From an uncultured bacterium (GTDB taxonomy: Bacteria; Patescibacteriota; Minisyncoccia; UBA6257; GWB1-50-10), in NCBI GenBank assembly GCA_903827975.1, contig CAIKKG010000024.1, positions 523 through 64,522 on the forward strand: a stretch of 64,000 nucleotides of DNA. Direction: 5' to 3'. Position numbers and translations under genes: made by a program. Within the stretch, counting starts at the first letter, position 1; each line of letters starts with the position of its first letter. The notes under the pieces were generated by a model. It had not been told where the DNA came from. It did not search any database and was given only the letters and a program-made list of their open reading frames with translations. This document shows, piece by piece, positions 34,575 through 63,081 of this stretch.

Positions 34575-37052
34575 ATGAAAAAGAAGAAAGAAGAACCAAT
34601 AGGCGAAATAGTAGTTCAGCGCATTGAGCCGCGCGAGATAACGGACGAGCTCAAAAGTTGCTACCTCGACTATGCGATGTCGGTTATTGTTTCGCGCGCG
34701 CTTCCAGACGTTAGAGATGGACTAAAACCTGTACAGCGCCGCATCCTTTGGGCTATGTGGGATACAGGACTTTTGCATTCCGCAAAATTCAGAAAATCTG
34801 CCAACGTCGTTGGAGAGGTTCTTGGTAAATATCACCCACATGGAGACTCGGCTGTTTATGATGCTATGGCTCGCATGGCACAAGACTTCTCTCTTCGTTA
34901 TCCACTCGTAGATGGTCAGGGTAACTGGGGTTCTATTGATGGTGATGCGCCAGCTGCTATGCGTTATACCGAAGCAAGGCTTACAAAGATTGCTGCGGAA
35001 CTTTTAGTTGATATCGAAAAGGGAACGGTTGATTGGAATCCGAACTATGACAACTCACGTGAGGAGCCAACATTTTTCCCAGCAAAACTTCCACACCTTC
35101 TTCTTAATGGAACTGTTGGTATCGCCGTTGGTATGGCCACATCAATTCCTCCACACAATCTAATGGAGATTGTTGATGCAACTATTTATCTTTCAAATAA
35201 CCCTGATGCAAACACTCGTGAACTTTTGCAGTTTGTTCCCGGACCTGATTTTCCAACTGGTGGAATAATTTATGATAAGCGCGGAATCGAGGAGGCATAT
35301 TCAACAGGACGTGGTGCTATAACAATGCGTGCGGTCACAGAAATTGAAGAACGTAAGGCTGGGAGTTTTCATATTATAGTTTCAGAAATTCCATATCAGG
35401 TTAATAAGTCCGACCTTATAACTAAGATGGCGGAGTTGGCTCAAGAAAAAAGAATTGAGGGTATTCGTGATTTGCGCGATGAGTCTGACCGAGAAGATAA
35501 GGTGCGCATTGTTATTGATTTAAAAAATGATGCGTCTCCGCAAAAAGTTTTAAACCAACTTTTTGAATATACTGAGCTCCAGAAAAATTTTCACTTTAAT
35601 ATGTTGGCGCTCGTAAACGGAATTCAACCACAGATTCTATCACTTAAGGATGTTCTTAGTGAATATATTGCACACAGAAAAGTTATGGTTCGTCGCAGAA
35701 CTGAGTTTGATCTAAAAAAGGCTGAGGACCGTGCTCATATTTTAATTGGTTTGGTTACCGCTCTTGATGTAATAGACAAGATAATCGCAACAATTAAGAA
35801 GTCTAAAGACAAGGAGGCTGCACGCGAAAATTTAATGAAGAATTTCAAACTTTCCGAAATTCAGGCAAATGCAATTTTGGAAATGAAATTGGCTGCACTC
35901 GCTGCACTTGAGAGAATTAAATTGGAAGACGAGTTAAAGGAGAAAAAGAAATTTATTGCTGAGTGTCAGGCGATTTTAAAATCAGCAAAAAGAATGCTCG
36001 AGATTATTCAGTCCGAATTACAAGAATTGAAAGAAACATATTCAAGCCCACGCAGAACCAGAGTTATTGCATCAGGCCTTAAGGAGTTCCGTGAAGAGGA
36101 TCTCGTCCCACAGGAAGAGGTGATTATCACGATGAGTCAGGATGGCTACATAAAGCGCATGTCGGCTGGAATTTTCAAAGCACAGAAACGTGGCGGAAAG
36201 GGACTTATTGGTTCTGAGCTAAAAGATGAGGATTTAGTAAATCAGATTATAACTGCTGATACTCACGATAATATTTTATTCTTCACTGACCATGGACGCG
36301 TATTCCAAACAAAGGCGTATGAGGTTCCAGTTGCAGCAAGAACAGCAAAAGGTAAGTCGGTTCATAATTTCTTAACAATTCCGCCGTCAGAAAAAATCTG
36401 CTCAATTGTGAGTTATTCTGATAAGCAGGAAAAAAATAGTGTGAATAAGTTCTTGGTTATGGCGACTCAGGGCGGTGTAATTAAAAAGACACCGGTCACA
36501 GACTTTGCGAATGTTCGCCGAAGCGGAATTATTGCTCTTAAGTTGAAGGCCGATGATTCGCTTCAGTGGGCTGCATTTTCTGGCGGTGAGGATGAGATTA
36601 TTCTTGTTACTTCAAACGGACAATCAATTCGTTTTAAGGAAAAGGATGTCCGCGCAATGGGAAGAACTGCGGCTGGAACAAAGGCTGCGAGACTTAAGAA
36701 GGGTGATGTTGTTGCTGGATTTGATATCATTCCAAAAGGAACGAGCAATGATACACAGTTTTTAGTTGTAATGGCTCACGGTTTTGCAAAACAAACACCA
36801 TTAAAGGATTACAAGACACAGAAGCGTGGCGGAGGAGGAATTAAGACTGCAAAAATAACAGAAAAAACAGGAAAGGTTATTGCCGCAAGAATTATTTCTG
36901 ATGAGGTTGAGGAGGTTCTGGCATTTTCTTCTAAGGGTCAGGCCTTAAGAACCAAGCTCGCAGACATTAGAGTCGCTGGACGCGCGACGCAAGGTGTAAA
37001 AATAATGAACCTTGATTCAGGGGACTCACTAATGGGAATTGTGTGTCTTTAA
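34575..37052 (+). CDS. gyrA: DNA gyrase subunit A
   Basis: The 825-aa protein has the active-site region [10 protein letters not shown], a GyrA-box-like segment and a C-terminal beta-pinwheel domain. Confidence 0.95.
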
Positions 37053-37112
37053 AAAATTGATTGTTTTATAAACTGGTATAAAAAAAATAAATAGAATTTC
37101 AAAAAACAACTT

Positions 37113-37134
37113 CCACCTATTCATGAATAGGTGG
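37113..37134. promoter_or_regulatory. Perfect 22-nt palindrome CCACCTATTCA|TGAATAGGTGG immediately upstream of a TATAAT (37142-37147) and the start of the SBP-pilin operon
   Basis: It is perfectly self-complementary with no T-tail, so it looks like an operator rather than a terminator. Confidence 0.4.
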
Positions 37135-37153
37135 AATTGCTATAATAAGCTCA

Positions 37154-38452
37154 ATGTCAAACGCTAAGCTCATTATTATTGGTGTGGTCGGGGTTTTAGT
37201 TCTTATTTTTGTTCTAATGCTTATCGGCATTATCCCAGGACTTAAGAGTAATCAACCGAATGCTGCTCCGGCAAGTCTAGTAATGTGGGGCGTAGGAAAT
37301 AGGGCTGGGCAGTTTGATAATGCTTTTCAAGCGTTCAAACAGACCTACCCAAATGTTCAGATTTTATATAAGGGTTTCGATACGCAAGATGAGTATGAAT
37401 CCGCACTAATAGAAGCATTCGCCTCTGGAAATAGTCCGGACATCTTTATGGTCGCAAATGAGAGTTTCCCTCGTTTTGCAAATAAAATAATTCCTTTTTC
37501 TACTGCTGCAATAACACTAACTCAGCTTGAACAGCTATTTCCGCAGACGGTTGAGCAGACATTTGTTCGAAATGGGCAGGCATATGCGCTTCCACTTTCA
37601 ATTGATACACTAGCACTTATTTATAACAAGGATATGTTCAATGCTGCGAGCATTCCTTTTCCACCTAAAACGTGGGAGGAATTTAAAACAATATCTCCGC
37701 GCTTATTGAAAAACGATAAGCTTACTGGCGCGCTTATCACGGCACCAAGCCCAATGGGTGGCTCTGAAAAAAACGTGGCTTACGCATCCGATCTTTTGGG
37801 CACTATCATGATTCAGAATGGAGCTAAAATGGTAAATTCAGATTTTTCGAATGCTTTGTTCTTATCACAGGAGGGTAGGGATGCAATTACTTTTTATACT
37901 CAGTTCGTAGACTCTCCAAATAGCACATCAACATGGAACGATGCGATGCCATACTCGATTGACGCATTCAGTCAGGAGAAAACCGCAATGACATTTGGGT
38001 ACCTGAGTGATGTAAATACAATTCGTTCAAAAAATTCGTTTCTTAATTTTGGCGTAGCGCTTCTTCCACAGTATGAGGGTACTTTAGCGGCCACACATCC
38101 GTTCTATTATGGTCTAGCTGTCTCAATTCAGACTAAGAACAATGATGCGGCTAAAAGATTAATTTTATCTCTTACTACCGACCAGAATATTGCTGAAATG
38201 TATCTCAAGGAAACAAAGACTCCACCAGCCCTTCTATCACTAATTAATCAGGACTTTAATGATTTACAGTTAAATGTTTTTGCGCGTCAGGCTTTAATTG
38301 CTCGCTCATGGCCTAAACCAGATAACCGCGCAGTAAAAGATATTTTTTCTCAGATGATAGATAATATAACCTCTAAAAAGCTCTCAGTTTATTCTGGTAT
38401 CCAGCAGGCGGAAGGCGAAGTTAATACCTTATTCAGAAATAAAAGCTTATAA
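37154..38452 (+). CDS. Extracellular solute-binding protein, ABC-transporter family-1 SBP, membrane-anchored
   Basis: The 432-aa protein has an N-terminal TM anchor and an SBP-like fold, and is the first gene of the operon that continues into the pilin paralogs. Confidence 0.55.
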   Translation: MSNAKLIIIGVVGVLVLIFVLMLIGIIPGLKSNQPNAAPASLVMWGVGNRAGQFDNAFQAFKQTYPNVQILYKGFDTQDEYESALIEAFASGNSPDIFMVANESFPRFANKIIPFSTAAITLTQLEQLFPQTVEQTFVRNGQAYALPLSIDTLALIYNKDMFNAASIPFPPKTWEEFKTISPRLLKNDKLTGALITAPSPMGGSEKNVAYASDLLGTIMIQNGAKMVNSDFSNALFLSQEGRDAITFYTQFVDSPNSTSTWNDAMPYSIDAFSQEKTAMTFGYLSDVNTIRSKNSFLNFGVALLPQYEGTLAATHPFYYGLAVSIQTKNNDAAKRLILSLTTDQNIAEMYLKETKTPPALLSLINQDFNDLQLNVFARQALIARSWPKPDNRAVKDIFSQMIDNITSKKLSVYSGIQQAEGEVNTLFRNKSL

Positions 38453-38462
38453 TAATTAATAT

Positions 38463-38876
38463 ATGAAACAACTAGTTGCTCTAACTGTTTTGTTACTGGT
38501 CGCCTTTGCAATTTTTATGCCCACACACAACGCGCAGGCTTTAAGTATCTGGGCTGGTGCAAAGTGTGGTGGCGCGGTGATTGGTCTGAATGATGGGCCC
38601 ACTGGCGCGTGTAATCTTTGTGATGCAATGATCGTGCTTCGAAACATAATAAACTTCGGGTTTACGCTCGCCATCTCGATAAGCACTGGTATGATTGCGT
38701 GGGGTGCTGTTCGTATGATGACTGCTGGAGGTAGTGAGAGTAACGTTAGTGAGGCAAAGAAAATAATATTTAGTGCCATAACTGGTGTAGCAATTGCACT
38801 TGGTTCGTGGATTATAGTAAATACATTATTCTCCGTGTTTACCGGTTCGTGGAACTGGAATCATTTCACGTGTTAA
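38463..38876 (+). CDS. VirB2/TrbC-like pilin-module protein, paralog 1
   Basis: A signal peptide (…THNAQA) is followed by Cys residues and a hydrophobic-charged loop-hydrophobic hairpin (LAISISTGMIAWGAVRMMTAGGSESNVSEAKKIIFSAITGVAIALGSWIIV). The hairpin is shared with 38893, 39598 and 61648. Confidence 0.6.
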   Translation: MKQLVALTVLLLVAFAIFMPTHNAQALSIWAGAKCGGAVIGLNDGPTGACNLCDAMIVLRNIINFGFTLAISISTGMIAWGAVRMMTAGGSESNVSEAKKIIFSAITGVAIALGSWIIVNTLFSVFTGSWNWNHFTC

Positions 38877-38892
38877 TATAAATAATAAATAA

Positions 38893-39579
38893 ATGAAAAA
38901 ATCTATTTTAAGAAAAATATTGTTTGTTGCACTAATCGTTATCGCGATATCCTTTCCATCGGTTTCTGTGGTCCGCGCACAATGCGCCCCAAACTCTAGT
39001 CAGTGCCCAGCAGAACTGTGTGGTGGAACATCAGGCTTTGTAGATAGCGATGGTGTGTGCTACACATCAGCAAGTTGTACCAACTCAAATATGTGTACTG
39101 GCGTTGTAACTGGTGGTGTATGTAATCCATCAAATGATTGTGCGTCCTCTTGCGGTGGAAGTCAGGGATATGCGGATAGTGAGGGATCATGCTACACAAG
39201 CTCGGCGTGTAATAACTATACTAGGTGTTCTGGTGGAACTAATACTGGTGGTGGCAATGCTGGTAGTGGTAATAATACTGGCGGGTTAGGTATTGGAGGT
39301 GGTGGCAATGCTGGATCAGACATGCAACTACAGAATCCTCTTGGGGTGAGTAGTATAAATGGTCTCATCAACAGAATAATTGATATTCTTATTATTTTAG
39401 GCATTCCTATTGCTAGTGGAATGATTATATGGGCGGCGTTCCTCTTCATGACCTCTGGTGGCGAGCCAGATAAGCTAACAACCGCAAGACACGCAATATT
39501 GTGGACTGTTATTGGATTTGTTATACTTTTAATTGCTAAGGGTATTGCTAGTATTATCAGGTCCGTTATGGGTATATAA
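38893..39579 (+). CDS. Pilin-module protein, paralog 2, with an N-terminal duplicated Cys-rich domain and a Gly-rich linker
   Basis: After the signal peptide come two copies of a roughly 33-aa Cys motif (C..G.SG[FY].DS[DE]G.CYTS..C.N...C.G), then GGNAGSGNNTGG and the conserved C-terminal 2-TM hairpin (LFMTSGGEPDKLTTARHAILWTVIGFVILLIAKG). Confidence 0.6.
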   Translation: MKKSILRKILFVALIVIAISFPSVSVVRAQCAPNSSQCPAELCGGTSGFVDSDGVCYTSASCTNSNMCTGVVTGGVCNPSNDCASSCGGSQGYADSEGSCYTSSACNNYTRCSGGTNTGGGNAGSGNNTGGLGIGGGGNAGSDMQLQNPLGVSSINGLINRIIDILIILGIPIASGMIIWAAFLFMTSGGEPDKLTTARHAILWTVIGFVILLIAKGIASIIRSVMGI

Positions 39580-39597
39580 CTAAAAAAATATTCTGAA

Positions 39598-39999
39598 ATG
39601 AAAGGTCGGATGTTTGTTTATATAATAAATCAATTTATGAAAAATCTAATAAAATATTCAGTACTTGGTCTTTCAATGTTTCCAGTATTAGCATCTGCTG
39701 CTAATGCAATAACTGGTGGTCCTACAAGTGCTGGTGATGTTTGGACTATAATCAATAATCTTTTGGGTTGGATGGTTGGTCTTTTCTTTTTGGCTGCGAC
39801 TGTTTTTATTCTTTTGGCCGGTTTCAAATATATGACTGCGGCTGGAGATGAGTCAAAGGTTACAGAAGCAAAAAACTATCTTACATATGCTGTAATAGGT
39901 ATTGCTGTTGGGCTTTTAGCATTTGCTATCCCAAATATTCTTGCCTCATTCCTAAAAGTTAATGTTCCGACTGGGGGTCCAGCTGGACAGGCCTTCTAA
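39598..39999 (+). CDS. Pilin-module protein, paralog 3. The ATG at 39637 is an alternative start.
   Basis: It has a signal peptide and the conserved hairpin (AGFKYMTAAGDESKVTEAKNYLTYAVIGIAVGLLAFAIP). Confidence 0.6.
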   Translation: MKGRMFVYIINQFMKNLIKYSVLGLSMFPVLASAANAITGGPTSAGDVWTIINNLLGWMVGLFFLAATVFILLAGFKYMTAAGDESKVTEAKNYLTYAVIGIAVGLLAFAIPNILASFLKVNVPTGGPAGQAF

Positions 40000-40017
40000 G
40001 TTATTTAACTAATTAAA

Positions 40018-40050
40018 AACCTCCGAGCTTTCATGTTTCGGAGGTTTTTG
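40018..40050 (+). terminator. Terminator of the SBP-pilin operon
   Basis: AAAAACCTCCGAGCTTTCATGTTTCGGAGGTTTTTGG. Confidence 0.7.
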
Positions 40051-40085
40051 GTTTAATGAGTGGGTTAGCAGGTATTCGTATATAT

Positions 40086-40167
40086 GCTCCCGTGGCGGAA
40101 CTGGCATACGCGCATGGCTTAGGACCATGTCCCGCAAGGGTTGGAGGTTCAAATCCTCTCGGGAGCA
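40086..40167 (+). tRNA. tRNA-Leu (anticodon TAG)
   Basis: The sequence shows acceptor GCTCCCG/CGGGAGC, a D-arm GGCGGAACTGGCATACGCGC like E. coli tRNA-Leu, anticodon stem CATGG/CCATG around loop CTTAGGA, a long variable arm and T-loop GTTCAAATC. Confidence 0.8.
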
Positions 40168-40173
40168 CAAAGA

Positions 40174-40198
40174 TAAAAACACCAATCTGGTGTTTTTA
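40174..40198 (+). terminator. Terminator after tRNA-Leu
   Basis: AAAAACACCAATCTGGTGTTTTTAG. Confidence 0.65.
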
Positions 40199-40369
40199 GT
40201 TTGTTTATTTAAACTATTTAGATTGGATTGTAAATTATTGACAAGCCTTTAAATTAGTGTTTTGCTCTAATTAATTCCTTGCCGCATGGCATAGGTGGTT
40301 ACTGAAAGGTAGCAACGGGGTCTTTCCTTTCCCTATCAAAAGGATGTTCTTTCCAATAGAAAGGGTCGT

Positions 40370-40663
40370 ATGACCAATACACCCATTCCCGCAATTCGCA
40401 TCTCCATCTCTAGCGGCCCCTCCCGCGAGGAGCTGTTCGATGCTCTTCGCCTGCGCCATGAGCACCGGCCCATCTTGGTCAAGGTCCACCCCTTGGACCA
40501 GAAGCCGATGGATATTAAGTTCATCGTGAACGGAATCGCCGTCGAGGATGGAAGCGGACAGAACTGGCTCATTGAGTTTTTGAACGTGCAGACCCACCAG
40601 ATCGTTCGCGGGTATTACAACTCGCGTACGCGCGCGGGTTGGCTCGACTTCCCTCGAGTGTAG
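40370..40663 (+). CDS. Hypothetical 97-aa protein encoded by a GC-rich (about 57%) stand-alone gene
   Basis: It has a TTGACA -35 at 40238, an AAGGG RBS 5 nt before ATG and its own terminator. It is a GC island between tRNA-Leu and the tyrosine recombinase. Confidence 0.5.
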   Translation: MTNTPIPAIRISISSGPSREELFDALRLRHEHRPILVKVHPLDQKPMDIKFIVNGIAVEDGSGQNWLIEFLNVQTHQIVRGYYNSRTRAGWLDFPRV

Positions 40664-40676
40664 TCATCACATCAAT

Positions 40677-40708
40677 CGCCGCCCGATATATTCGGGCGGT
40701 TTTTTTAT
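40677..40708 (+). terminator. Rho-independent terminator
   Basis: CGCCGCCCGATATATTCGGGCGGTTTTTTT. Confidence 0.7.
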
Positions 40709-53206: not shown

Positions 53207-55237
53207 ATGAAGCTTCTCAATAAAAAACTGTTACTGGTTTTAGGAATCGTTCTTCTTTCTGGACTTGTCGTCCCTCATTTAGCGCATGCAGCTGGTATGA
53301 TGGAACAGGCACTTACAGATGTAGTAACCTATACCTTTAAATTCATTACCTATATTTTTGCATATATAGGTTCGGTATTATTCAGTTTTGCCGGTATGCT
53401 AGTGGACTACACACTGAGACTTAATATGACTGTTGGGGATACTGAAAAGAATCTTCTTCTTGGTGTTGGTTGGGGCATCACAAAAGATATTGCAAACCTT
53501 GGCTTCGTGCTCGCTATGATTATTATTGCGTTCGCAACAATAATCGGAAATGAAAGTTATGGATACAAAAAATTACTTGCTAATTTAATTGGTGCTGCGA
53601 TTGCTGTAAACTTCAGTCTTGCAATTGCTGGGGTATTTATCGATTTCTCTCATGTTATTACTGTATTTTTTATAAATAAAATAAGTACTACTGGCGCTTC
53701 TGGCATGGCTGAGCAGATGGCAAATGCGTTTAGCGTTCAGAATTTTCTATTAGAGGACTCTAACAATCCACTACCTCCGAATCCGTCTGAGGAGAGTGGG
53801 ACAATGTCACGCCTAAGTACTGCGGTTGTAATCTCTCTTGTGAGTTTAGTCTTTGTACTTGTGTTCACAATAACGGCTGCAATTATATTTTTAATATTTG
53901 CAATAATGCTTCTCGCTCGATATGTCTGGCTATCATTCCTTCTTATTATCGCTCCGATAACATGGTTGTTCTGGGTTATCCCTGGAATGAGTGGTAAGTT
54001 CGGAGAGTGGTGGAGTAACTTCTTAAAACAGGTTTTCTTTGCACCAGCAATGACGTTCTTCCTATATCTTGCTTTTATGAGTGTGCAGGGTCTTGCCGAA
54101 AAACCAGCCACGGGTGCTTTCTTCAAAGATGGCGCGCTTGCAGCAATAATAAGTTCTGGAGCTAATATGGTTGTTTTGATTGGAATCCTTGTTGGTGGAC
54201 TTATAACAGCTGAAAAAATGGGCGCAACTGGCGCAAAAATGGGAATGGAGAGATTGTCTGCTTTGGGTGGCGCCTCAAAGGATTATGCAGGGAGTATAGC
54301 TAAGAAATATGGTAAGAAGGTTGCAGAAACAAAAGCTGTTAAGAGTGTGCAGAGTGCAGCCCTTCGTGTTGGCTCTAGCGCAAGGAAGCTTGCTGAATAT
54401 AAACCAACAAGTAGAACTGGTAAGATTTTGACCGCTGTAACAGGGCTAGGTCTTGCAAAGTCTGTTGTTGGACTTGGAGGAGAAAAATTACAAAATATTG
54501 GTGGCGTGCCAGTAAATCCGGACTCGCTTGGTTCAAGGGCCTGGTCTGCGGTCTGGGGTAAGTATCCTGATAATCGCGCTCAATCTAAGAAGGATGCTGA
54601 TGAGAGGGAACAAAACAAGGGAGCTGAGGAGCTCACGGCTGATCATGAGAAACTACGCACCGAGCGACAGAGGCTTGTTGATAATGGCGTAAGTGAGAAA
54701 GACCCAAGAATTGTCACTATGGATAAGCAACTTGGAAAGCTAAAATCAAGTGTTGTAGAGAAAACAAGCCTACCAAAAGACGTAGAAGGATTAATTAACA
54801 AAGAAAAGGAATTGAAGTTGAAGTTGGAAGAATTGGCAGCTGGTGGTAGTGACATCTCTGTGATTAAAAAGCAACTTGAGAAAGCAACTGATGAACTTGA
54901 TAAGGCTCAAAGAGAGGACTCGAAAATAACACCGGCTAGTAGGGCGTGGAAGAGCCACCGCATTACAAAAGAAGCCACTAGAATGGCTGGTATAATAGGC
55001 GGAAAAATAAAACCTGGTGAGCCAGACCCAGACACAGACACAGATTCCGCTATAGCACAAGAGAAATTATGGCGCGAAATTGATACGCAGAAGAAGCCTA
55101 ACTCCAAACCAGCTTGGGCGGAACGCGTAATTAAACTCGACGCTGCTCTAACAGAAGCTACTGCTGCCCACCTTCCACCTGACGCACTTAAGTACATTGG
55201 GGATTTAAAGGCTGAGGCGATTGATAAGAGTACATAA
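53207..55237 (+). CDS. VirB6/TrbL-like polytopic inner-membrane channel protein with a C-terminal coiled-coil charged tail
   Basis: The 676-aa protein has a signal or TM N-terminus, at least 6 TM helices across the first 350 residues, then a K/E-rich coiled coil. Confidence 0.5.
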   Translation: MKLLNKKLLLVLGIVLLSGLVVPHLAHAAGMMEQALTDVVTYTFKFITYIFAYIGSVLFSFAGMLVDYTLRLNMTVGDTEKNLLLGVGWGITKDIANLGFVLAMIIIAFATIIGNESYGYKKLLANLIGAAIAVNFSLAIAGVFIDFSHVITVFFINKISTTGASGMAEQMANAFSVQNFLLEDSNNPLPPNPSEESGTMSRLSTAVVISLVSLVFVLVFTITAAIIFLIFAIMLLARYVWLSFLLIIAPITWLFWVIPGMSGKFGEWWSNFLKQVFFAPAMTFFLYLAFMSVQGLAEKPATGAFFKDGALAAIISSGANMVVLIGILVGGLITAEKMGATGAKMGMERLSALGGASKDYAGSIAKKYGKKVAETKAVKSVQSAALRVGSSARKLAEYKPTSRTGKILTAVTGLGLAKSVVGLGGEKLQNIGGVPVNPDSLGSRAWSAVWGKYPDNRAQSKKDADEREQNKGAEELTADHEKLRTERQRLVDNGVSEKDPRIVTMDKQLGKLKSSVVEKTSLPKDVEGLINKEKELKLKLEELAAGGSDISVIKKQLEKATDELDKAQREDSKITPASRAWKSHRITKEATRMAGIIGGKIKPGEPDPDTDTDSAIAQEKLWREIDTQKKPNSKPAWAERVIKLDAALTEATAAHLPPDALKYIGDLKAEAIDKST

Positions 55238-56447: not shown

Positions 56448-56930
56448 ATGGCAGAATTCCAAGTTCCGCAATTTATCGAGGAGAAACCAAAAATCGTTGG
56501 CCCACTAACCATCGTTCAGTTTTTGTATATTGGTTCTGGTGCGGCAATTTCTCTTATAAGTTATTACGCTTTTAATACTATTTTATGGTTAATTATCTCA
56601 ATAATAGTTGTTGGAATATCAGTTGCGCTCGCCTTTGTTAAGGTTAATGGCCAGGACCTGCCAGTTGTTGCTTTGTCTGCTTTTCAGTTTATATGGGGCC
56701 CAAGAAAATACACTTGGCAAAGAGCGATGGAGCAGACGACTTTTGATACTTCTGATTTGGAGAAGATTCAGGTAATAAGAAAAAATATCAGCATTCAAGA
56801 TAAAATTAAATCTATTGCGCTTGGTATTACAACTGGAAGTATTGAGAGAACGAAAGCCGGCGGTACAAAATTTCAGTCTGTTACCTACATAACAGGGGAG
56901 CATAAGGTTGCGAAGAGAGTTGATTACTAA
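56448..56930 (+). CDS. VirB3/PrgI-like small two-TM protein
   Basis: The 160-aa protein starts MAEFQVPQFIEEKPKIVGPLTIVQFLYIGSGAAISLISYY… with two adjacent TM helices, and sits immediately upstream of the VirB4-type ATPase as in canonical T4SS loci. Confidence 0.5.
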   Translation: MAEFQVPQFIEEKPKIVGPLTIVQFLYIGSGAAISLISYYAFNTILWLIISIIVVGISVALAFVKVNGQDLPVVALSAFQFIWGPRKYTWQRAMEQTTFDTSDLEKIQVIRKNISIQDKIKSIALGITTGSIERTKAGGTKFQSVTYITGEHKVAKRVDY

Positions 56931-56959
56931 ACCGCGTAAATACGGTACAATATTAATAC

Positions 56960-57598
56960 ATGGCTGATATAAGCATCCCAACACAACAATTCGTTGACGT
57001 AAAAGAAGTACGCGATGGCGTTTTGTATTTAAAGTCTGGTGGTATCCGCAAAATACTTATCGTCGGCGGAATTAACTTTGATCTCAAATCAGAAGGTGAG
57101 CAAAATACAATACTTGCAAGTTTCCAGAATTTTTTAAATACAATTGATTTTCCTATACAACTTCTCATTCACTCAAGAAAGGTTAATGTTGAGAGTTATC
57201 TTTCGAAAATGGTTCAGTTAAAAGATAAAGAGGATAATGAACTTTTAAAAATACAGATTGGTGAATATATAAACTTCATACGTTCTTTTGTTGATGAGAA
57301 CGCAATAATTAGTAAGGTATTTTTAGTTGTTGTCCCATATGAGTCTGCTTCTGCGAAATCAAGTTCATCTGGTTTTTTTGATATTTTTAAAAAACAGACG
57401 AAGGTTGAGATTAATGAGTCCGAAAATGCTGCAATAGAGCAACTTAATCATAGGGTTTCTGAGGTGACCGACGGATTAATGCAGGTTGGTCTTAATGTTA
57501 CATCACTTAATAGTGATGAGATTACTGAGTTGTTTTACAATATGTACAATCCACAACTAGCCGAGAAGAAAAATATGGACTTAATAAAAGAATCATAA
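56960..57598 (+). CDS. VirB4/TraE-type conjugation-family ATPase, N-terminal domain ORF
   Basis: MADISIPTQQFVDVKEVRDGVLYLKSGGIRKILIVGGINFDLKSEGEQNTILASFQNFLNTIDFPIQLLIH matches the N-terminal membrane-proximal domain of Gram-positive-type VirB4 (TcpF/PrgJ-like). It ends with TAA-GAA-TAA, in frame with the next ORF. Confidence 0.6.
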   Translation: MADISIPTQQFVDVKEVRDGVLYLKSGGIRKILIVGGINFDLKSEGEQNTILASFQNFLNTIDFPIQLLIHSRKVNVESYLSKMVQLKDKEDNELLKIQIGEYINFIRSFVDENAIISKVFLVVVPYESASAKSSSSGFFDIFKKQTKVEINESENAAIEQLNHRVSEVTDGLMQVGLNVTSLNSDEITELFYNMYNPQLAEKKNMDLIKES

Positions 57599-57607
57599 GA
57601 ATAAAAA

Positions 57608-59359
57608 ATGAAGATACAAATTCCACAAACTTATAAACCATCATCGAAAGACCTACCAAATATTGTAGCGCCGTCAGGTCTTGAGGTAGATGCTAATTAT
57701 TTGAAACTAGGTGATTACTTTGTAAAAACTATTTTTATTTTTACGTACCCTCGCTTCGTGGTTTCTGGTTGGTTCTCTCCTATTATAAATATTTCGGAGA
57801 TGATGGATATCTCTATTTTCGTTCACCCAATGGAGACTGGCGCGGCCTTGCGCGACCTACAAAAGAAGGTTGCTCAAGTGCAGTCTGAGCTTTCTGAGAA
57901 GGAATCGAAGGGTATGGTTCGCGATCCACTACTTGAAACAGCTTATCAGGACATTGAGAGTCTAAGAGATTCATTGATGCAGGCGAGGGAGAAACTTTTT
58001 AAGGTTGGTGTTTATATTACTTTATATGGGCAGAGCCTTGAGGCGCTTACAAAATTGGAGAATGAGATAGAATCCTTACTTGAAAGTAAGTTGATATATG
58101 TTAAACCCGCGCTTTTCAAACAACTTGAAGGTTTTAATTCTATTCTTCCACTTTGTACTGATAAACTACTAACACACACACCACTTAATTCTGGGCCAGC
58201 ATCGTCCCTTTTTCCCTTCGTCTCTCCAGACCTTACATCAGATAAGGGAATTATGTATGGGATTAATATACACAACAGCAGCCTCGTTATATTCGATCGC
58301 TTCTCCCTTGAAAATGCCAACCAGGTTATATTTGCAAAATCAGGTGCTGGTAAATCATACACTGCAAAACTTTTGATTCTTCGCTCTCTCATGGTTGGAA
58401 CTAATGTTATTGTTATTGATCCTGAGAATGAGTATCAGAATCTTTCAAGCGCTATTGGTGGAAGTTATTTTAAAATCTCACTTACTTCATCGAGCCACAT
58501 TAATCCCTTTGACATACCAATCATACCGGAGGGGGATGAGCCGGCGGACGTTTTTAAATCACACATATTAAATTTGTCTGGCTTGGTTAAATTAATGCTT
58601 GGCGCAATATCACCTGAAGAGGATGCTCTACTTGATAAGGCTCTTACTGATACATATGCATCGCGCGATATTACCGCGGAAAACTTTGGTCAAACAAAGG
58701 AAATGGATGCACCACTCTTAGAAGATTTGCAGGTTATCTTACAAAACAACAAGGGTGGTTTCCAACTTGCACAACGCCTTGAAAAATTCACACATGGAAC
58801 ATATGCGGGTTTTACAAATGCTCCAACAAACGTTGATTTTAAAAATCGTTTGATTGTTTTCTCGATTCGCGACCTTGATGAGGAGTTGCGACCAATCGCG
58901 ATGTATATTGTTTTGAACTTTGTTTGGAATCTTGTTCGTGCTGAGCTTCGACCACGATTTCTTATTGTTGATGAGGCGTGGATTATGATGAAGTTTAAAG
59001 ACAGCGCCTCTTTCTTGTTTGGACTTGTTAAGCGTGCTCGTAAATACTACCTTGGAATCACAACCATTACACAGGACGTTGAGGACTTTTTGAAGTCTGA
59101 GTATGGTAAGCCTATCGTCACAAACTCAGCAACCCAGATTTTAATGAAACAATCTCCAGCATCTATTGATTCAGTTGCTAGTGCGTTTAGTCTTACAGAG
59201 GGTGAGCGCGGCTTACTACTTGAGGCGAGTGTTGGAGAGGGATTGTTTTTTGCGGGCGCAAAACATGTTGCTATTAAAATTATTGCGTCATACACAGAGG
59301 ATCAAATAATAACAACAAAACCTGATCAGATTTTAGAAATTAAGGGTCTAAAACAATAA
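57608..59359 (+). CDS. VirB4/TraE-type ATPase, C-terminal ATPase domain ORF
   Basis: Walker A AKSGAGKSYT, Walker B FLIVDEAW and C-terminal motifs are present. The frame is the same as the preceding ORF. Confidence 0.7.
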   Translation: MKIQIPQTYKPSSKDLPNIVAPSGLEVDANYLKLGDYFVKTIFIFTYPRFVVSGWFSPIINISEMMDISIFVHPMETGAALRDLQKKVAQVQSELSEKESKGMVRDPLLETAYQDIESLRDSLMQAREKLFKVGVYITLYGQSLEALTKLENEIESLLESKLIYVKPALFKQLEGFNSILPLCTDKLLTHTPLNSGPASSLFPFVSPDLTSDKGIMYGINIHNSSLVIFDRFSLENANQVIFAKSGAGKSYTAKLLILRSLMVGTNVIVIDPENEYQNLSSAIGGSYFKISLTSSSHINPFDIPIIPEGDEPADVFKSHILNLSGLVKLMLGAISPEEDALLDKALTDTYASRDITAENFGQTKEMDAPLLEDLQVILQNNKGGFQLAQRLEKFTHGTYAGFTNAPTNVDFKNRLIVFSIRDLDEELRPIAMYIVLNFVWNLVRAELRPRFLIVDEAWIMMKFKDSASFLFGLVKRARKYYLGITTITQDVEDFLKSEYGKPIVTNSATQILMKQSPASIDSVASAFSLTEGERGLLLEASVGEGLFFAGAKHVAIKIIASYTEDQIITTKPDQILEIKGLKQ

Positions 59360-60458: not shown

Positions 60459-61670
60459 ATGAAACCAATTTATAAAATTCTTATTACTTTAGTTGTAATA
60501 ATCATCGTCATATTCCTTTCATATTTCTTGTGGACAAAGTTTTTTGCGCCAAAGTCTGTGACGCCACAAGAGCCTGGAACTGGTGTGATAATTACACCTC
60601 CTAGTGATAATAATGGTCAGACTGGAGGAGGTGATAATCCTCCGGGTGGCGCGCCAGGCACATCAACACCTACAACATCTAACGTGGATGAGTATTTATT
60701 TAAAAAACTTTCTGATAAGCCGGCTCTGGCTTTTTGGGTCTCTATAACTGGTAATACGGCTTTTTATGTTTCTGAGTCTGGCGTAGTTATGGAGGCTAAG
60801 GATGGAGAGGACTCTGTAGTTTCAAAACAACCAATCTCTAATTTTATAAGTTTAGAGGCGTCTCCATCTGGTGAGAAGGTTATTCTTTCCTTTGGAAGTC
60901 CGTCAAATATTCAATTGGCAATTTTTGATTCTGTTGATAAGGTTTTGCGCCCACTTCCAAAAGAAATCTTAAGTGCTTCGTGGGCTGGAACTGATAATCA
61001 GTTGGTTGGTGTCACACAACAAAATGATGTAACTCTACTCTCATTAATAAATATCTCAAAACAACCCTACACTTACAAGACGCTTGTAACAAATTTTTCT
61101 ATAAAGGATGCTTTGTTTTCTGCCAAGTCAGCAACTGAGATTTTAATCTCTGAAAAACCTTCATCTCACTCTCTATCTGGCGTCTGGCAACTAGATACTG
61201 ACACCGGCGTTATGACACTTGTTGTGAGCCCTGCTCTTGGTTCTTTTATAAGGTGGGCTAGTGGAAAGGATTTAATGTTTAAGTTCGCATCACCAAATAA
61301 GTTTTCAATACTGGATCGTTCCTTTGGTGAAATATCGCCGGTGTTATTTACAACGCTACCAAATAAATGTGATGGTGGTCTTGATGTGATTTATTGTTTT
61401 ATTCCTAAAGACAAGGGTGTTTTCTCAAATACAAACTCGATGCCTGACGATTATTTTATGAATAATATCTTCACTAGTGACGATTTTTATAAAATCTCTC
61501 CGTCCTCCGGCATTGAATCACTTATAATGGCTGGTGGGTCGGGTAAGATTCCGGTTATTGATGCGGATAATGTCTCATATGCAAACTCATCAACTTATTT
61601 TATTAATAAGTATGATAATTATGTTTATGCAATTCAAAAAACAACAAATGAAGTTATTAATGATTACTAA
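60459..61670 (+). CDS. Hypothetical membrane-anchored extracytoplasmic protein of the T4SS-like operon
   Basis: The 403-aa protein has an N-terminal TM anchor and a Gly/Pro/Thr linker. Confidence 0.45.
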   Translation: MKPIYKILITLVVIIIVIFLSYFLWTKFFAPKSVTPQEPGTGVIITPPSDNNGQTGGGDNPPGGAPGTSTPTTSNVDEYLFKKLSDKPALAFWVSITGNTAFYVSESGVVMEAKDGEDSVVSKQPISNFISLEASPSGEKVILSFGSPSNIQLAIFDSVDKVLRPLPKEILSASWAGTDNQLVGVTQQNDVTLLSLINISKQPYTYKTLVTNFSIKDALFSAKSATEILISEKPSSHSLSGVWQLDTDTGVMTLVVSPALGSFIRWASGKDLMFKFASPNKFSILDRSFGEISPVLFTTLPNKCDGGLDVIYCFIPKDKGVFSNTNSMPDDYFMNNIFTSDDFYKISPSSGIESLIMAGGSGKIPVIDADNVSYANSSTYFINKYDNYVYAIQKTTNEVINDY

Positions 61671-63081
61671 AAAGGTTTTACTGTCCTTGTTTGTGGTTGT
61701 TGCTGTGTTTGCTCCAATGTACTTATTTGCAGCGGAAACAGCATCGACTGGCCCAACACCGATTGTTGTTACAATGTCATCACCAATGCCGTGCATTCCA
61801 GTTCCTTTCATGGGTGGGAACACCTGCTCACAACCCGCAGGAGACTCAGCTATTCAGACTTATATAAAACTTTTGTATCAATTCGCGGTTGGAATCTCTG
61901 GTATTGTTGCTGTAGGAATGATTGTGTGGGGATCTATTCAGATTTCTTTATTTAGCGAGAGTATAACCCAGAAAAGTGAGGGGAGGGATAAAATTACGTC
62001 AGCAATAATTGGTGTTATTCTTCTTCTTGGTTCTTATTTGCTACTTAATACTATAAACCCGAGAATTGTTCAGCTTGGTCAGACACTTACAACTGTTAAA
62101 CAAGCAAAGCCGTCATCAGACATTGCAAAGGTTGGTGTGTCGAGTTGTGGAACATCAACTTTAATATCAGGAGCGGTTGGTACACCAATAGATTTTAATG
62201 TTAAACCAGACGCTGGTAATACTTGTAAATATAGAAAGCTTTTTGTATATAGAGATGGTTTTACAATTTCTGGTATGGATGCTGCATATTATGGTGGTTC
62301 TGGTGATGTTCAAATAGCGGCGCAGTCTGTTATTTGGCTCTACCCTTATCGCGTGAAGGGGGCTGTGGAAACATTTGATAGCAACGGCACACTAGCAAGC
62401 GCTAAGTGTATTGTATATGCATATAAAGAGCCTAGTATGACGAGTATTCGTTTTACAAACCTACAAAATACAATTGAGCCTTGTGTGTTAAGTGACAAAC
62501 AGGAAGATGGGTATGTTGGTGGTCCTGGGTCAGGAGTTGGTAACGTTTCTGGAGATGTAAAGGATTTAGCCAATCAATTAGGTAGTCCAAACTCTACTGT
62601 GAAATTCTCTACGGACAATTCTTGTAATCCTCCCGGCTCTGCCGCAAAAAATATTCTTTATTCTATGCAAAACGGAACGGCGCCTTTTGTCTGCTCTGCT
62701 GGTTGTCAAACAAACAAAACAGAGTGCACACAAAATGGGGCTTATCCTGAGGCTTCTATATTAAAAGCAATTATAGCCCTGCAAAATTCTAAAACAACAG
62801 TTTCGACGGTCACTAGTTTAACTGGTGGTGATCATTCGGCTAATTCTGGGCATTACCAAGGTACAGCTTTTGATCTCAGTGTAGGATCAAGCAACACAGA
62901 TGATTGGAATAATGTTATGAAAATTTTAAATACTTCGGGTGTTACAGCATACTGCGAATACCAAGGACCTGGGGAGGATAAAGCTAAACTTCACACAAAA
63001 TGTGCAACTGGAATAAGTGGTGGGCATCTCCATGTACAGGTCAATAAAAACAGTAATGCTATAAACAATGGGACTCCATAA
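61648..63081 (+). CDS. Fusion protein with an N-terminal VirB2/TrbC-like pilin module and a C-terminal M15-family zinc peptidoglycan peptidase domain
   Basis: After the signal peptide comes the conserved hairpin AVGISGIVAVGMIVWGSIQISLFSESITQKSEGRDKITSAIIGVILLLGSYLLLNT, paralogous to 38463, 38893 and 39598. The C-terminus has SGHYQGTAFDL and GGHLHVQV (H-x6-D ... H-x-H zinc site of M15, VanY/endolysin type). The start was trimmed from the ORF-track 61534 to the ATG after the upstream stop. Confidence 0.6.
   Translation: MKLLMITKKVLLSLFVVVAVFAPMYLFAAETASTGPTPIVVTMSSPMPCIPVPFMGGNTCSQPAGDSAIQTYIKLLYQFAVGISGIVAVGMIVWGSIQISLFSESITQKSEGRDKITSAIIGVILLLGSYLLLNTINPRIVQLGQTLTTVKQAKPSSDIAKVGVSSCGTSTLISGAVGTPIDFNVKPDAGNTCKYRKLFVYRDGFTISGMDAAYYGGSGDVQIAAQSVIWLYPYRVKGAVETFDSNGTLASAKCIVYAYKEPSMTSIRFTNLQNTIEPCVLSDKQEDGYVGGPGSGVGNVSGDVKDLANQLGSPNSTVKFSTDNSCNPPGSAAKNILYSMQNGTAPFVCSAGCQTNKTECTQNGAYPEASILKAIIALQNSKTTVSTVTSLTGGDHSANSGHYQGTAFDLSVGSSNTDDWNNVMKILNTSGVTAYCEYQGPGEDKAKLHTKCATGISGGHLHVQVNKNSNAINNGTP

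What the first reader, a model, noticed from the sequence alone, without database searches (positions are those of the whole stretch)
37113..40050. Satellite operon of three VirB2/TrbC-like pilin paralogs behind a solute-binding protein, 10 kb from the T4SS core
Three consecutive genes (38463, 38893, 39598) encode small exported proteins. They share the conserved hairpin …[AG]G[GDS]ES[NK]V[ST]EAK… flanked by two hydrophobic helices, the VirB2/TrbC pilin architecture. The same module recurs in the 61648 fusion, giving four paralogs. The three are co-transcribed with a family-1 solute-binding protein from a promoter region containing a perfect 22-nt palindrome. A terminator and tRNA-Leu follow. 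Multiple pilin variants suggest a heteropolymeric or phase-variable filament. The SBP linkage is unexplained.
Basis: partly seen in the sequence, partly recalled or inferred. Interest (0 to 1): 0.7.

Follow-up and report, generated by a model that had tools for sequence, protein, structure and literature searches.

The report
Sugar-binding protein operon with three pilins
In an ultrasmall Parcubacteria-type bacterium, three ancient and distinct VirB2-like "pilin" genes always sit behind one sugar-binding protein gene; pilin arrays like this are already known, but the fixed partnership with a sugar-binding protein is not described in the papers I could search and may hint at what this group's unexplained type IV secretion system does.

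Summary
Window 37154-39999 encodes a family-1 solute-binding protein (SBP) followed by three small exported two-helix proteins. All three reach the Pfam T4SS_pilin (PF18895) cut-off. A terminator and tRNA-Leu follow, and a VirB3/VirB4 type IV secretion cluster lies 10-17 kb downstream. Tandem VirB2-like pilin arrays in Patescibacteria are already published (2023, 2025), so that part is not new.

What I found no description of is the context. In 80 species-level genomes the order gyrA, SBP, pilin A, pilin B, pilin C (1-4 copies) is nearly invariant. Pilin A follows the SBP in 75/75 loci, and all three classes are present in 61/63. The SBP-pilin link persists where gyrA adjacency is lost and where the SBP is only 28% identical.

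The three pilins are orthologous classes, not recent or phase-variable copies. Class A shows cysteine covariation that predicts a disulfide joining its two outer ends. No ABC permease or ATPase lies nearby.

Best reading: a heteromeric T4SS filament or conduit module with a dedicated oligosaccharide-binding partner. The 26-nt palindrome looks like the gyrA terminator hairpin rather than an operator. This is a new variant of a known kind, of moderate interest.

The parts
37111..37136 (+). Perfect 26-nt palindrome (11-bp stem with a 4-nt loop as RNA) between the gyrA stop and the SBP promoter. Most likely the gyrA terminator or attenuator hairpin.
   Evidence: 13+13 nt, 100% complementary. (dG -15.6 kcal/mol, z -5.8); not conserved in sequence; relatives L004 and L005 have canonical terminator hairpins at the same position.
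37138..37146 (+). Extended -10 box TGcTATAAT, ending 7 nt before the SBP start codon. Implies a leaderless or near-leaderless transcript.
   Evidence: Sequence. The same arrangement occurs in L009 and L021. TA[TA]AAT starts 11-18 nt before the ATG at 7 of 54 genes in the window, against about 0.6 expected.
37154..38452 (+). Membrane-anchored family-1 (CUT1, MalE-like) oligosaccharide-binding protein, 432 aa. It has an N-terminal transmembrane helix followed by a conserved IPGL motif.
   Evidence: PF01547 88.8 bits. AlphaFold model pLDDT 92.3, helix 3-24. Foldseek best hits are oligosaccharide SBPs, E 6e-27, TM about 0.7. PDB profile search E 3e-31. L21, P28 and G29 are conserved in at least 90% of 101 orthologues.
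38463..38876 (+). Class A pilin, 137 aa: signal peptide, four Cys (C35, C50, C53, C137), two long helices (52-87, 92-127) joined by a GGSE loop, and a C-terminal W..H/I.TC tail.
   Evidence: PF18895 26.7 bits. AlphaFold hairpin pLDDT 79. Alignment of 40 orthologues. Cys covariation.
38893..39579 (+). Class B pilin, 228 aa: signal peptide; a duplicated 12-Cys module (residues 31-115, nt 38983-39237); a Gly-rich linker (nt 39238-39318); an NPLG motif; and the two-helix hairpin (nt 39319-39576).
   Evidence: PF18895 43.3 bits and TrbC 21.9 bits for the whole protein. The isolated hairpin gives 46.9 and 25.7 bits. Class consensus. N- or C-terminal Cys-rich additions occur in other A and B orthologues.
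39637..39999 (+). Class C pilin, 120 aa from the ATG at 39637 (the longest ORF starts at 39598). No Cys and no extra domain. This class is present in 1-4 copies in relatives, making it the candidate bulk subunit.
   Evidence: PF18895 52.7 bits. NCBIfam Mbov_0395 pilin-like family 38.6 bits against a cut-off of 40. Orthologue starts. Copy numbers.
40011..40053 (+). Intrinsic terminator hairpin followed by a T-run, closing the operon.
   Evidence: dG -21.5 kcal/mol, z -7.1. Sequence.
40086..40168 (+). tRNA-Leu (anticodon UAG).
   Evidence: ARAGORN. (Rfam tRNA, 54.7 bits).
56448..59359 (+). Recognisable T4SS core: PrgI/VirB3-like (56448-56930), TrsD-like or VirB4 N-terminal domain protein (56960-57598), and a VirB4 ATPase of the monoderm CD1110 type (57608-59359).
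   Evidence: PF12666, PF19044, AAA_10. (NF045971 346.5 bits against cut-off 325; TrsD E 6e-9).
53207..55237 (+). 676-aa protein with about 9 predicted transmembrane segments inside the putative T4SS cluster. A possible VirB6-like channel subunit, based on hydropathy alone.
   Evidence: Kyte-Doolittle scan. No family match.
61648..63081 (+). Fourth PF18895 hairpin (about nt 61843-62031) fused to a 300-aa Cys-rich C-terminal region. That region ends in an SxHxxGxAxD...HxH motif.
   Evidence: PF18895 32.9 bits. (sequence). (Peptidase_M15_3 only E 0.05, below cut-off).

Best explanation
**What it is.** The locus is a conserved chromosomal operon of Parcubacteria/Paceibacteria-type Patescibacteria. 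A membrane-tethered oligosaccharide-binding protein of the MalE/CUT1 family is followed by three anciently diverged VirB2/TrbC-superfamily hairpin proteins (classes A, B and C).

**Shown here**
- Family membership of all four proteins.
- Near-invariant gene order across species.
- Three orthologous pilin classes.
- Cysteine covariation in class A.
- Absence of ABC transporter partners nearby.
- A monoderm-type VirB3/VirB4 T4SS elsewhere in the same window.

**Inferred mechanism**
1. Each pilin is inserted through Sec and loses its signal peptide. It then sits in the membrane as a hairpin with both ends outside.
2. The separately encoded VirB4/VirB3/VirB6-like machine extracts the hairpins and stacks them into one heteromeric filament or conduit.
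3. Class C is undecorated and variable in copy number, so it supplies the bulk.
4. Classes A and B are single-copy specialised subunits that can carry Cys-rich surface domains. In this genome class B carries one.
5. Class A is closed by a disulfide between the segment before helix 1 and its C-terminal Cys. This would be a chemical counterpart of the head-to-tail cyclisation of T-pilin, TrbC and TrhA.
6. The SBP is the most conserved member and always sits immediately upstream of class A. It acts as a dedicated partner that binds a conserved oligosaccharide at the cell surface. It would either sense contact or nutrient to prime the structure, or hand the ligand to it.
For: **Family membership**
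- PF18895 at or above the cut-off for all three pilins and for the fusion.
- TrbC/VirB2 PF04956 matches in 18 of 28 class-B orthologues.
- The AlphaFold model of class A is a two-helix hairpin.

**Conserved synteny**
- Searches cover 80 species-level loci with SBP identity of 38-68%.
- Pilin A is the next gene after the SBP in 75/75 loci. A, B and C are all present in 61/63. gyrA is upstream in 67/68.
- The median gap between the SBP stop and the pilin A start is 6 nt.
- The linkage survives loss of gyrA adjacency (L084) and holds at 28% SBP identity with a lipoprotein-type anchor (L086).

**Pilin classes**
- The classes are homologous but distinct.
- Cys53 co-occurs with an odd number of Cys in the C-terminal tail: 76 sequences have both, 35 have neither, 1 is an exception.
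- Natural single-chain proteins with 6-7 hairpins, and one with 17 matched stretches, argue that array members pack side by side.

**Link to type IV secretion**
- T4SS genes lie in the same window.
- The best plasmid relative of pilin C lies directly upstream of a PrgI / VirB4-like ATPase / coupling-protein cluster.

**The SBP**
- Its fold and profile match oligosaccharide-binding SBPs.
- No ABC ATPase and only one possible permease motif were found in 1075 ORFs from 84 sources.
- The 64-kb window has no ABC genes at all.

**Literature**
- VirB2-like arrays exist in Patescibacteria and are essential in Southlakia epibionticum (PMC10633639, PMC12102498, PMC12857230).
Against: - No filament has been seen in any Patescibacterium, and none can be inferred from sequence.
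- The module is never within 8 kb of VirB4 or PrgI in 83 related loci. Dependence on the T4SS therefore rests on homology alone.
- The T4SS cluster carries its own PF18895 domain protein, which could be its true VirB2.
- The window's own pilins fall below the cut-off of the canonical TrbC/VirB2 model.
- The fold search and the PDB profile searches found no solved pilin.
- No SBP-pilin fusion was seen.
- The SBP looks like a fully ordinary transporter SBP. The rest of the genome could not be searched for a cognate permease.
- The covariation counts are not corrected for shared ancestry.
Confidence: 0.55

Rival explanations
1. The SBP and the three hairpin proteins form an SBP-dependent membrane ring or conduit for uptake of host-derived oligosaccharide, not an extended pilus. 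This would work with or without the VirB4 machine.
For: - The SBP is strictly coupled to the hairpins, and no ABC permease or ATPase lies nearby.
- The module is never adjacent to VirB4.
- Single-chain proteins with one signal peptide and 6-7 hairpins, and one with 17 matched stretches, resemble covalently linked ring subunits.
- Structure-based annotation in S. epibionticum listed ATP synthase subunit c as a top fold for one pilin.
- Nutrient uptake has been proposed for this T4SS (PMC11665869).
Against: - No energy-coupling component is encoded in the module.
- Family relatives sit in conjugation clusters at the VirB2 position.
- There is no precedent for sugar transport by VirB2-like proteins.
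- Fused hairpins are also compatible with a filament.
Confidence: 0.2
2. The SBP is an ordinary ABC-importer binding protein whose permease is encoded elsewhere. It merely shares a conserved housekeeping neighbourhood with the pilin genes and has no functional link to them.
For: - It has an intact CUT1 fold and strong profile matches to transporter SBPs.
- It is more conserved than the pilins.
- The whole gyrA to S15/PNPase neighbourhood is syntenic.
- Orphan SBP genes exist in other bacteria (general knowledge).
Against: - Adjacency holds in 75/75 loci with a median 6-nt gap.
- It persists after rearrangements that removed gyrA, and at 28% SBP identity.
- No ABC genes occur in 84 sources.
Confidence: 0.12
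3. The paralogues are alternative pilin variants used for antigenic, phase or host-range variation, as proposed for Bartonella and Anaplasma VirB2 arrays and suggested for Patescibacteria.
For: - The genes are tandem and divergent, 28-34% identical.
- The idea is raised in PMC12102498.
- Class C copy number varies from 1 to 4.
- Variable Cys-rich decorations occur on classes A and B.
Against: - Each gene is a positional orthologue conserved across more than 60 species in fixed order.
- No simple-sequence repeats, invertible segments or silent cassettes were found.
- The nearby recombinase is the conserved XerC/D-type gene next to S15.
Confidence: 0.04
4. The small proteins are unrelated two-helix membrane proteins such as holins or bacteriocin immunity proteins. 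The pilin label would then be an artefact of hydrophobic composition.
For: - Pilin 1 only just reaches the PF18895 cut-off (26.7 against 26.6 bits).
- The fold search returns only generic helical hairpins.
Against: - No holin, immunity or phage family hit.
- TrbC/VirB2 matches in 18 of 28 orthologues.
- A relative lies in a conjugation cluster.
- The polar loop is conserved, not only the hydrophobic helices.
Confidence: 0.01

Closest known systems
VirB2-like pilin arrays of Patescibacteria (S. epibionticum SEML1_0014-0019; 441 arrays in 383 assemblies; PMC10633639, PMC12102498)
   Same: - PF18895 proteins in tandem.
- Low pairwise identity: 28-34% here, an average of 25% reported.
- Chromosomal location in monoderm cells with an MPF-FATA-like VirB4 and a PrgI.
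- No relaxase in view.
   Different: - Here the array is separate from the T4SS core.
- It is led by a solute-binding protein.
- It consists of three orthologous classes in fixed order beside gyrA.
- The published arrays are described as variable paralogues inside or near the T4SS cluster and as most abundant in Microgenomatia and Saccharimonadia. No SBP or gyrA link is mentioned.
Canonical conjugative pilins VirB2 / TrbC / TrhA (PF04956)
   Same: - A signal peptide, two hydrophobic helices and a short polar loop.
- Both termini lie on the outer face.
- The termini are joined: by peptide-bond cyclisation in T-pilin, TrbC and TrhA (PMC12037004, PMC13434634), and by a predicted disulfide in class A here.
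   Different: - The window proteins fall below the PF04956 cut-off.
- The envelope is monoderm.
- There are three co-conserved classes rather than one major pilin.
- No cyclase was identified.
- Extra Cys-rich domains are present.
CUT1 oligosaccharide-binding proteins of ABC importers (MalE, GacH, CbpB, Lmo0181, Tlet_1705)
   Same: - Pfam family, two-lobed fold and size are the same.
   Different: - No permease or ATPase genes were found nearby in 84 sources.
- The N-terminal transmembrane helix carries a conserved IPGL motif.
- It is invariably followed by pilin genes.
Binding proteins tied to type IV secretion: ChvE-VirA of Agrobacterium, PrgZ/TraC of enterococcal pheromone plasmids (recalled from general knowledge, not tested here)
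   Same: An SBP-fold protein feeds an extracellular chemical cue into a T4SS-related process.
   Different: Those proteins act through a histidine kinase or the Opp permease. They are not encoded with pilin genes. PrgZ and TraC belong to SBP family 5.
Mycoplasma ICE Mbov_0395 pilin-like conjugal transfer proteins (NCBIfam NF045849)
   Same: Small VirB2-like membrane proteins of a wall-less or monoderm T4SS. Pilin C scores 38.6 bits against a cut-off of 40.
   Different: The score is below the cut-off. Those proteins are single genes inside a mobile element, with no SBP.

Membership tests
Pfam PF18895 T4SS_pilin | Profile score at or above the gathering cut-off (26.6 bits) | tested here: met
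   26.7, 43.3 and 52.7 bits for the three genes, and 32.9 bits for the fusion. All 28 class-B orthologues match.
Pfam PF18895 T4SS_pilin | Signal peptide followed by two hydrophobic helices joined by a short polar loop | tested here: met
   AlphaFold model of class A: helices 52-87 and 92-127 with a 4-residue loop. Alignments. Signal peptides were judged by eye only.
Pfam PF18895 T4SS_pilin | T4SS core genes (VirB4, VirB3) in the same genome | tested here: met
   PrgI at 56448 and VirB4 at 57608. They are 16-18 kb away and never adjacent in 83 related loci.
Canonical TrbC/VirB2 pilins (PF04956) | Profile score at or above the gathering cut-off (27.9 bits) | tested here: not met
   The window's best score is 25.7 bits, for the class B hairpin alone. 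Eighteen of 28 orthologues match at E<=1e-3, best 1.6e-9. Homology is therefore supported, but I do not file the window proteins in this family.
Canonical TrbC/VirB2 pilins (PF04956) | Fold or sequence match to a solved conjugative pilin | tested here: inconclusive
   Foldseek against the PDB gave no hit with E<=0.001, only generic hairpins. PDB profile searches with classes B and C gave nothing relevant.
Canonical TrbC/VirB2 pilins (PF04956) | Polymerises into an extracellular filament; termini processed or cyclised | not testable with these tools
   The only related evidence is cysteine covariation that predicts an N-segment to C-tail disulfide in class A.
Patescibacterial VirB2 array (as defined in PMC12102498) | Two or more pilin genes in tandem, or separated by one non-pilin gene, in a genome with VirB4 | tested here: met
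   Three consecutive PF18895 genes, with VirB4 in the same window.
SBP_bac_1 / CUT1 solute-binding proteins | Profile match and two-lobed binding-protein fold | tested here: met
   PF01547 88.8 bits. Model pLDDT 92.3. Foldseek E 6e-27 to oligosaccharide SBPs. PDB profile E 3e-31.
SBP_bac_1 / CUT1 solute-binding proteins | Works with a cognate ABC permease pair and ATPase, usually encoded alongside | tested here: not met
   None by Pfam in the 64-kb window. A motif scan of 1075 ORFs in 84 sources found 0 ABC ATPases and 1 EAA-motif ORF. The rest of the genome could not be examined.
SBP_bac_1 / CUT1 solute-binding proteins | Binds an oligosaccharide ligand | not testable with these tools
   Aromatic residues that are conserved or nearly so (W45, Y81, W174, Y248, W261, Y283, W386) are compatible with sugar stacking. 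They were not mapped onto the binding cleft.
Phase- or antigen-variable pilin systems | Simple-sequence tracts, invertible promoter or segment, or silent cassettes | tested here: not met
   Only in-frame imperfect Gly-linker repeats were found. The single long-range inverted repeat is an A/T run. The paralogues are fixed orthologous classes.

The most novel reading that the evidence does not exclude
The SBP-led pilin triad is the substrate-capturing end of an import device. The binding protein collects a host-derived oligosaccharide and passes it to a conduit built from VirB2-like hairpins. If so, the essential but unexplained Patescibacterial T4SS, or a derivative of it, would be a nutrient-uptake machine rather than a secretion or conjugation system.
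Probability: 0.18. Interest if true: 0.85.

Novelty: new variant of a known kind. Interest (0 to 1): 0.55.

Why it matters
Patescibacteria make up a large share of bacterial diversity and depend on host cells. Their T4SS is essential in the one species tested, yet a 2024 perspective calls its role 'completely unknown' (PMC11665869).

Relatives of this SBP were found in 524 species-level genomes. The SBP-pilin order was checked in the best 80 of them. A sugar-binding protein locked to VirB2-like subunits across these genomes gives a concrete, testable handle on that question. The tests would be to identify the SBP ligand, to find out whether the SBP contacts the pilins, and to see whether the triad forms a filament or a channel.

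Two further points matter:
- At least some 'pilin arrays' are fixed sets of non-interchangeable subunits rather than variable copies.
- The predicted disulfide in class A may be a substitute for pilin cyclisation.

Tried and rejected
- **Single-sequence search with pilin A.** It found only 5 relatives. An alignment query was needed to reach further.
- **Fold search of the pilin A model against the PDB.** It returned only generic helical hairpins, with no hit at E<=0.001.
- **PDB profile searches with classes B and C.** They found no solved pilin.
- **PHROGs search for holin-like families.** No hits.
- **Palindrome as an operator.** Rejected. There are no further half-sites in the window and no similar sequence in any related locus. 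Relatives have ordinary terminators at that position.
- **Phase variation.** Rejected.
- **Riboswitch or other RNA element.** Only the tRNA was found.
- **C-terminal domain of the 61648 fusion as an M15/LAS peptidase.** The motif is visible, but the Pfam match is E 0.05 and the PDB search gave nothing relevant. I leave this as a hint only.
- **SBP-pilin fusion proteins.** None among the 120 listed SBP relatives.
- **Plasmid search with pilin C.** It gave 4 weak hits. Only the Embleya hit was informative.
- **Literature searches for an SBP or gyrA link to these pilins.** Nothing found.

Full report
**1. Observation check**

The ORF list shows gyrA (34575-37052) followed on the same strand by four genes. 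These are a 432-aa protein (37154-38452) and three small proteins (38463-38876, 38893-39579, 39598-39999).

ARAGORN and Rfam place tRNA-Leu(UAG) at 40086-40168. A hairpin plus T-run at 40011-40053 folds at -21.5 kcal/mol (z -7.1).

The palindrome is real but is 26 nt rather than 22 (37111-37136).

The quoted loop motif fits the first and third small proteins exactly and the second only loosely.

**2. What the proteins are**

Pfam assigns the large protein to SBP_bac_1 at 88.8 bits. It assigns all three small proteins to T4SS_pilin PF18895 at 26.7, 43.3 and 52.7 bits against a cut-off of 26.6.

The ORF at 61534/61648-63081 carries the same domain at 32.9 bits.

NCBIfam places pilins 2 and 3 near the Mycoplasma ICE 'pilin-like conjugal transfer protein' family, just under its cut-off. 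No holin, immunity or phage family matches.

The window paralogues are 28-34% identical.

The class B hairpin alone scores 25.7 bits on the canonical TrbC/VirB2 model, which is below the cut-off. However, 18 of 28 class-B orthologues match that model at E<=1e-3, with a best value of 1.6e-9.

An AlphaFold model of the first pilin, built from 51 sequences, has pLDDT 79. It is a hairpin of two 36-residue helices joined by a 4-residue loop.

Fold and sequence searches against solved structures were uninformative.

I therefore file the proteins in PF18895, a VirB2-superfamily family. I do not file them in PF04956 itself.

**3. The surroundings and the T4SS**

The rest of the window is housekeeping: LeuRS, H+-PPase, NusA, RecA, FtsK, FtsH, PNPase and others. 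This content and the SBP relatives point to a Parcubacteria/Paceibacteria-type Patescibacterium.

A T4SS core lies downstream:
- PrgI/VirB3 at 56448-56930.
- A TrsD-like or VirB4 N-terminal domain protein at 56960-57598.
- A VirB4 of the monoderm CD1110 type at 57608-59359 (346.5 bits against a cut-off of 325).

This cluster follows ksgA and precedes jag and yidC. That matches the origin-proximal location reported for Patescibacteria (PMC12102498).

**4. The key comparative result**

The SBP has hundreds of full-length relatives of about 430 aa.

Three gene-context look-ups, at 68%, 48% and 43% identity, all showed gyrA, SBP and three PF18895 genes in that order.

A scan of one genome per species found 524 genomes with a relative. 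I analysed the best 80 with class-specific HMMs:
- A class A pilin is the next gene after the SBP in 75 of 75 loci that extend far enough.
- gyrA is immediately upstream in 67 of 68.
- Classes A, B and C are all present in 61 of 63.
- The gene orders are ABC (35 loci), ABCC (13), ABCCC (5), and a few with B moved to the end.
- The median gap between the SBP stop and the pilin A start is 6 nt.

Two more distant contexts lack gyrA. One of them (L086) has an SBP only 28% identical and of lipoprotein type. Both still show an SBP_bac_1 gene directly followed by 3-5 PF18895 genes.

The conserved unit is therefore SBP plus pilins, not the gyrA neighbourhood.

No VirB4 or PrgI homologue lies within 8 kb of the module in any locus. 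'Satellite' is an accurate description.

**5. Three classes, not variable copies**

The classes have distinct conserved features.
- **Class A** has a C..C..CDA segment before helix 1 and a PW..I.C tail.
- **Class B** has an NPLG motif before helix 1.
- **Class C** has an AAF.YLTA.GD.EK core and no Cys. It is the class that is duplicated.

In 112 distinct class A sequences, Cys53 co-occurs with an odd number of Cys in the tail after helix 2. There are 76 sequences with both, 35 with neither and 1 exception. This predicts a disulfide that joins the two outer ends of the hairpin.

That would parallel the head-to-tail cyclisation known for T-pilin, TrbC and TrhA, whose joined ends lie on the pilus surface (PMC12037004, PMC13031515, PMC13434634). 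The counts are not corrected for phylogeny.

Classes A and B in several lineages carry Cys-rich domains at the N- or C-terminus, both of which are extracytoplasmic. The 12-Cys duplicated module and Gly linker of the window's class B protein is one such decoration.

**6. Family-wide context**

A profile search of 1.84 billion representatives finds 94,027 relatives at E<=1e-3.

Some are single polypeptides with one signal peptide and 6-7 consecutive hairpins, and one has 17 matched stretches. By Rosetta-stone logic this supports side-by-side packing of array members. It is also compatible with a ring or conduit rather than a long filament.

The best plasmid relative of pilin C (E 8e-5) is an unannotated ORF in an Embleya plasmid. 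It lies directly upstream of a cluster of PrgI, a VirB4-like ATPase, a coupling protein and a relaxase-type gene. This ties the family to monoderm T4SS loci independently of Pfam's name.

**7. The SBP**

The AlphaFold model has pLDDT 92.3 and pTM 0.86. It has an N-terminal transmembrane helix (residues 3-24), a low-confidence linker, and then a two-lobed domain.

The best structural matches all bind oligosaccharides. They include binders of cycloalternan, acarbose/maltose, cello-oligosaccharides, sophoro-oligosaccharides and maltose (E down to 6e-27, TM about 0.7, roughly 20% identity). The PDB profile search agrees (E 3e-31).

Residues L21, P28 and G29 in and just after the anchor are conserved in at least 90% of 101 orthologues, as are many aromatic residues.

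The SBP is more conserved than the pilins: 38-68% identity against 25-59%. This argues for a conserved ligand or partner rather than a fast-evolving adhesin.

No ABC ATPase and only one possible permease motif were found among 1075 ORFs of at least 150 aa in 84 sources. The window has no ABC genes at all.

**8. Regulation**

The palindrome folds into an 11-bp stem (-15.6 kcal/mol, z -5.8). It is not conserved in sequence. It occupies the place where close relatives have canonical gyrA terminators.

Directly after it lies TGcTATAAT, ending 7 nt before the SBP start codon.

TA[TA]AAT boxes start 11-18 nt before the ATG at 7 of 54 genes, against about 0.6 expected. These include the SBP, pilin A and pilin C genes. 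Shine-Dalgarno-like sequences occur at about 6 of 54 genes.

Leaderless starts are therefore likely. 'One operon from one promoter' is plausible but not shown.

I found no evidence for phase variation.

**9. What is already known**

VirB2-like pilin arrays in Patescibacteria are published:
- Six essential PF18895 genes lie in the S. epibionticum T4SS cluster (PMC10633639).
- 441 arrays of 2-11 genes occur in 383 assemblies, with about 25% mean identity. The authors suggest a role in host-range or antigenic versatility (PMC12102498).
- A 2025 review highlights their potential to build pili in a monoderm (PMC12857230).

None of these texts, nor further full-text searches, mention a solute-binding protein or gyrA linkage.

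The multi-pilin observation is therefore known. I found no description of the SBP-led, three-class module. The search covers only the held library.

**10. Mechanism and its rivals**

*Best explanation (0.55).* The module supplies a heteromeric filament or conduit for the separately encoded T4SS.
- Class C is the bulk subunit.
- Classes A and B are specialised single-copy subunits.
- The SBP is a dedicated oligosaccharide-binding partner.

*What is shown.* Families, synteny, class structure, covariation and the missing ABC partners.

*What is inferred.* Assembly, dependence on VirB4, the SBP-pilin contact and the ligand.

*Rivals.*
- An SBP-dependent hairpin conduit for uptake rather than a pilus (0.20).
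- An ordinary ABC SBP that merely hitchhikes next to the pilins (0.12).
- Variable pilin copies (0.04).
- Unrelated small membrane proteins (0.01).

**11. Limits**

- No coordinates of the predicted models were available, so binding-site residues and Cys distances were not measured.
- Multimer prediction, whole-genome searches and signal-peptide prediction were not possible.
- ORF starts in related loci are longest-ORF calls.
- Several MAG labels in the related loci are probably unreliable.

Noticed in passing
window 61648-63081: The fourth PF18895 hairpin is fused to a 300-aa Cys-rich extracellular region. That region ends in SGHYQGTAFD...GGHLHVQV, an SxHxxGxAxD...HxH pattern like LAS/M15 cell-wall peptidases. 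Pfam Peptidase_M15_3 reaches only E 0.05. It could be a pilin-anchored wall hydrolase acting as a VirB1 analogue.
   Followed up: partly
window, all 54 gene starts (for example 37141, 38448, 39621, 18045 region, 44856 region): TA[TA]AAT boxes start 11-18 nt before the ATG at 7 of 54 genes, against about 0.6 expected by chance. Shine-Dalgarno-like sequences precede only about 6 of 54 genes. This suggests widespread leaderless mRNAs in this genome.
   Followed up: partly
proteins P0218, P0220, P0229: Database relatives exist as single polypeptides with one signal peptide followed by 6-7 tandem pilin hairpins. One, of 1775 aa, has 17 matched stretches but I did not read its sequence. I could not check whether these are real genes or merged gene calls beyond reading two sequences, which looked seamless.
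   Followed up: partly
L002 8629-9948, L009, L017, L019, L020, L024, L029, L032, L039, L056, L064, L069, L078, L079: A PMT-type (GT-C) protein glycosyltransferase gene directly follows the pilin array on the same strand in 14 related species loci. In S. epibionticum an STT3/PglB-like glycosyltransferase sits beside pilin SEML1_0024 and S15. This hints at pilin glycosylation, and a sugar-binding SBP could recognise such a glycan. No homologue is present in this window.
   Followed up: partly
L087 (Embleya plasmid NZ_CP108778.1) 9001-9273: An unannotated ORF related to pilin C (E 8e-5) lies just upstream of a conjugation cluster of PrgI, a VirB4-like ATPase, a coupling protein and a relaxase-type gene. 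VirB2-like proteins may therefore be overlooked in actinomycete conjugation systems.
   Followed up: partly
window 56960-57598 and 57608-59359: VirB4 appears split. A 212-aa protein matches the N-terminal part of VirB4 models and TrsD/TraD. It is followed 10 nt later by the ATPase body.
   Followed up: partly
window 47999-49069 (- strand): A LysM + Peptidase_M23 protein lies about 1.4 kb upstream of the putative T4SS cluster. The 2025 paper reports such proteins as VirB1-like partners of VirB4 in Paceibacteria.
   Followed up: no
L008 4256-7900, L037 1774-5418, L056 2406-6077, L059 3660-7880: The gyrA ORFs in these relatives are 3.6-4.2 kb instead of about 2.5 kb. This suggests an intein or another large insertion in gyrA.
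   Followed up: no
L013, L071 and many loci titled 'uncultured Candidatus Saccharibacteria': Contigs labelled Gammaproteobacteria, Spirochaetia or Saccharibacteria carry the Parcubacteria-type gyrA-SBP-pilin module. The cause is probably mis-binning or generic labels.
   Followed up: no
window 40200-40700: A roughly 500-nt stretch lies between tRNA-Leu and the XerC/D-type recombinase gene. It has only short overlapping ORFs on both strands and slightly higher G+C. A second hairpin lies at 40174-40198, directly after the tRNA.
   Followed up: no
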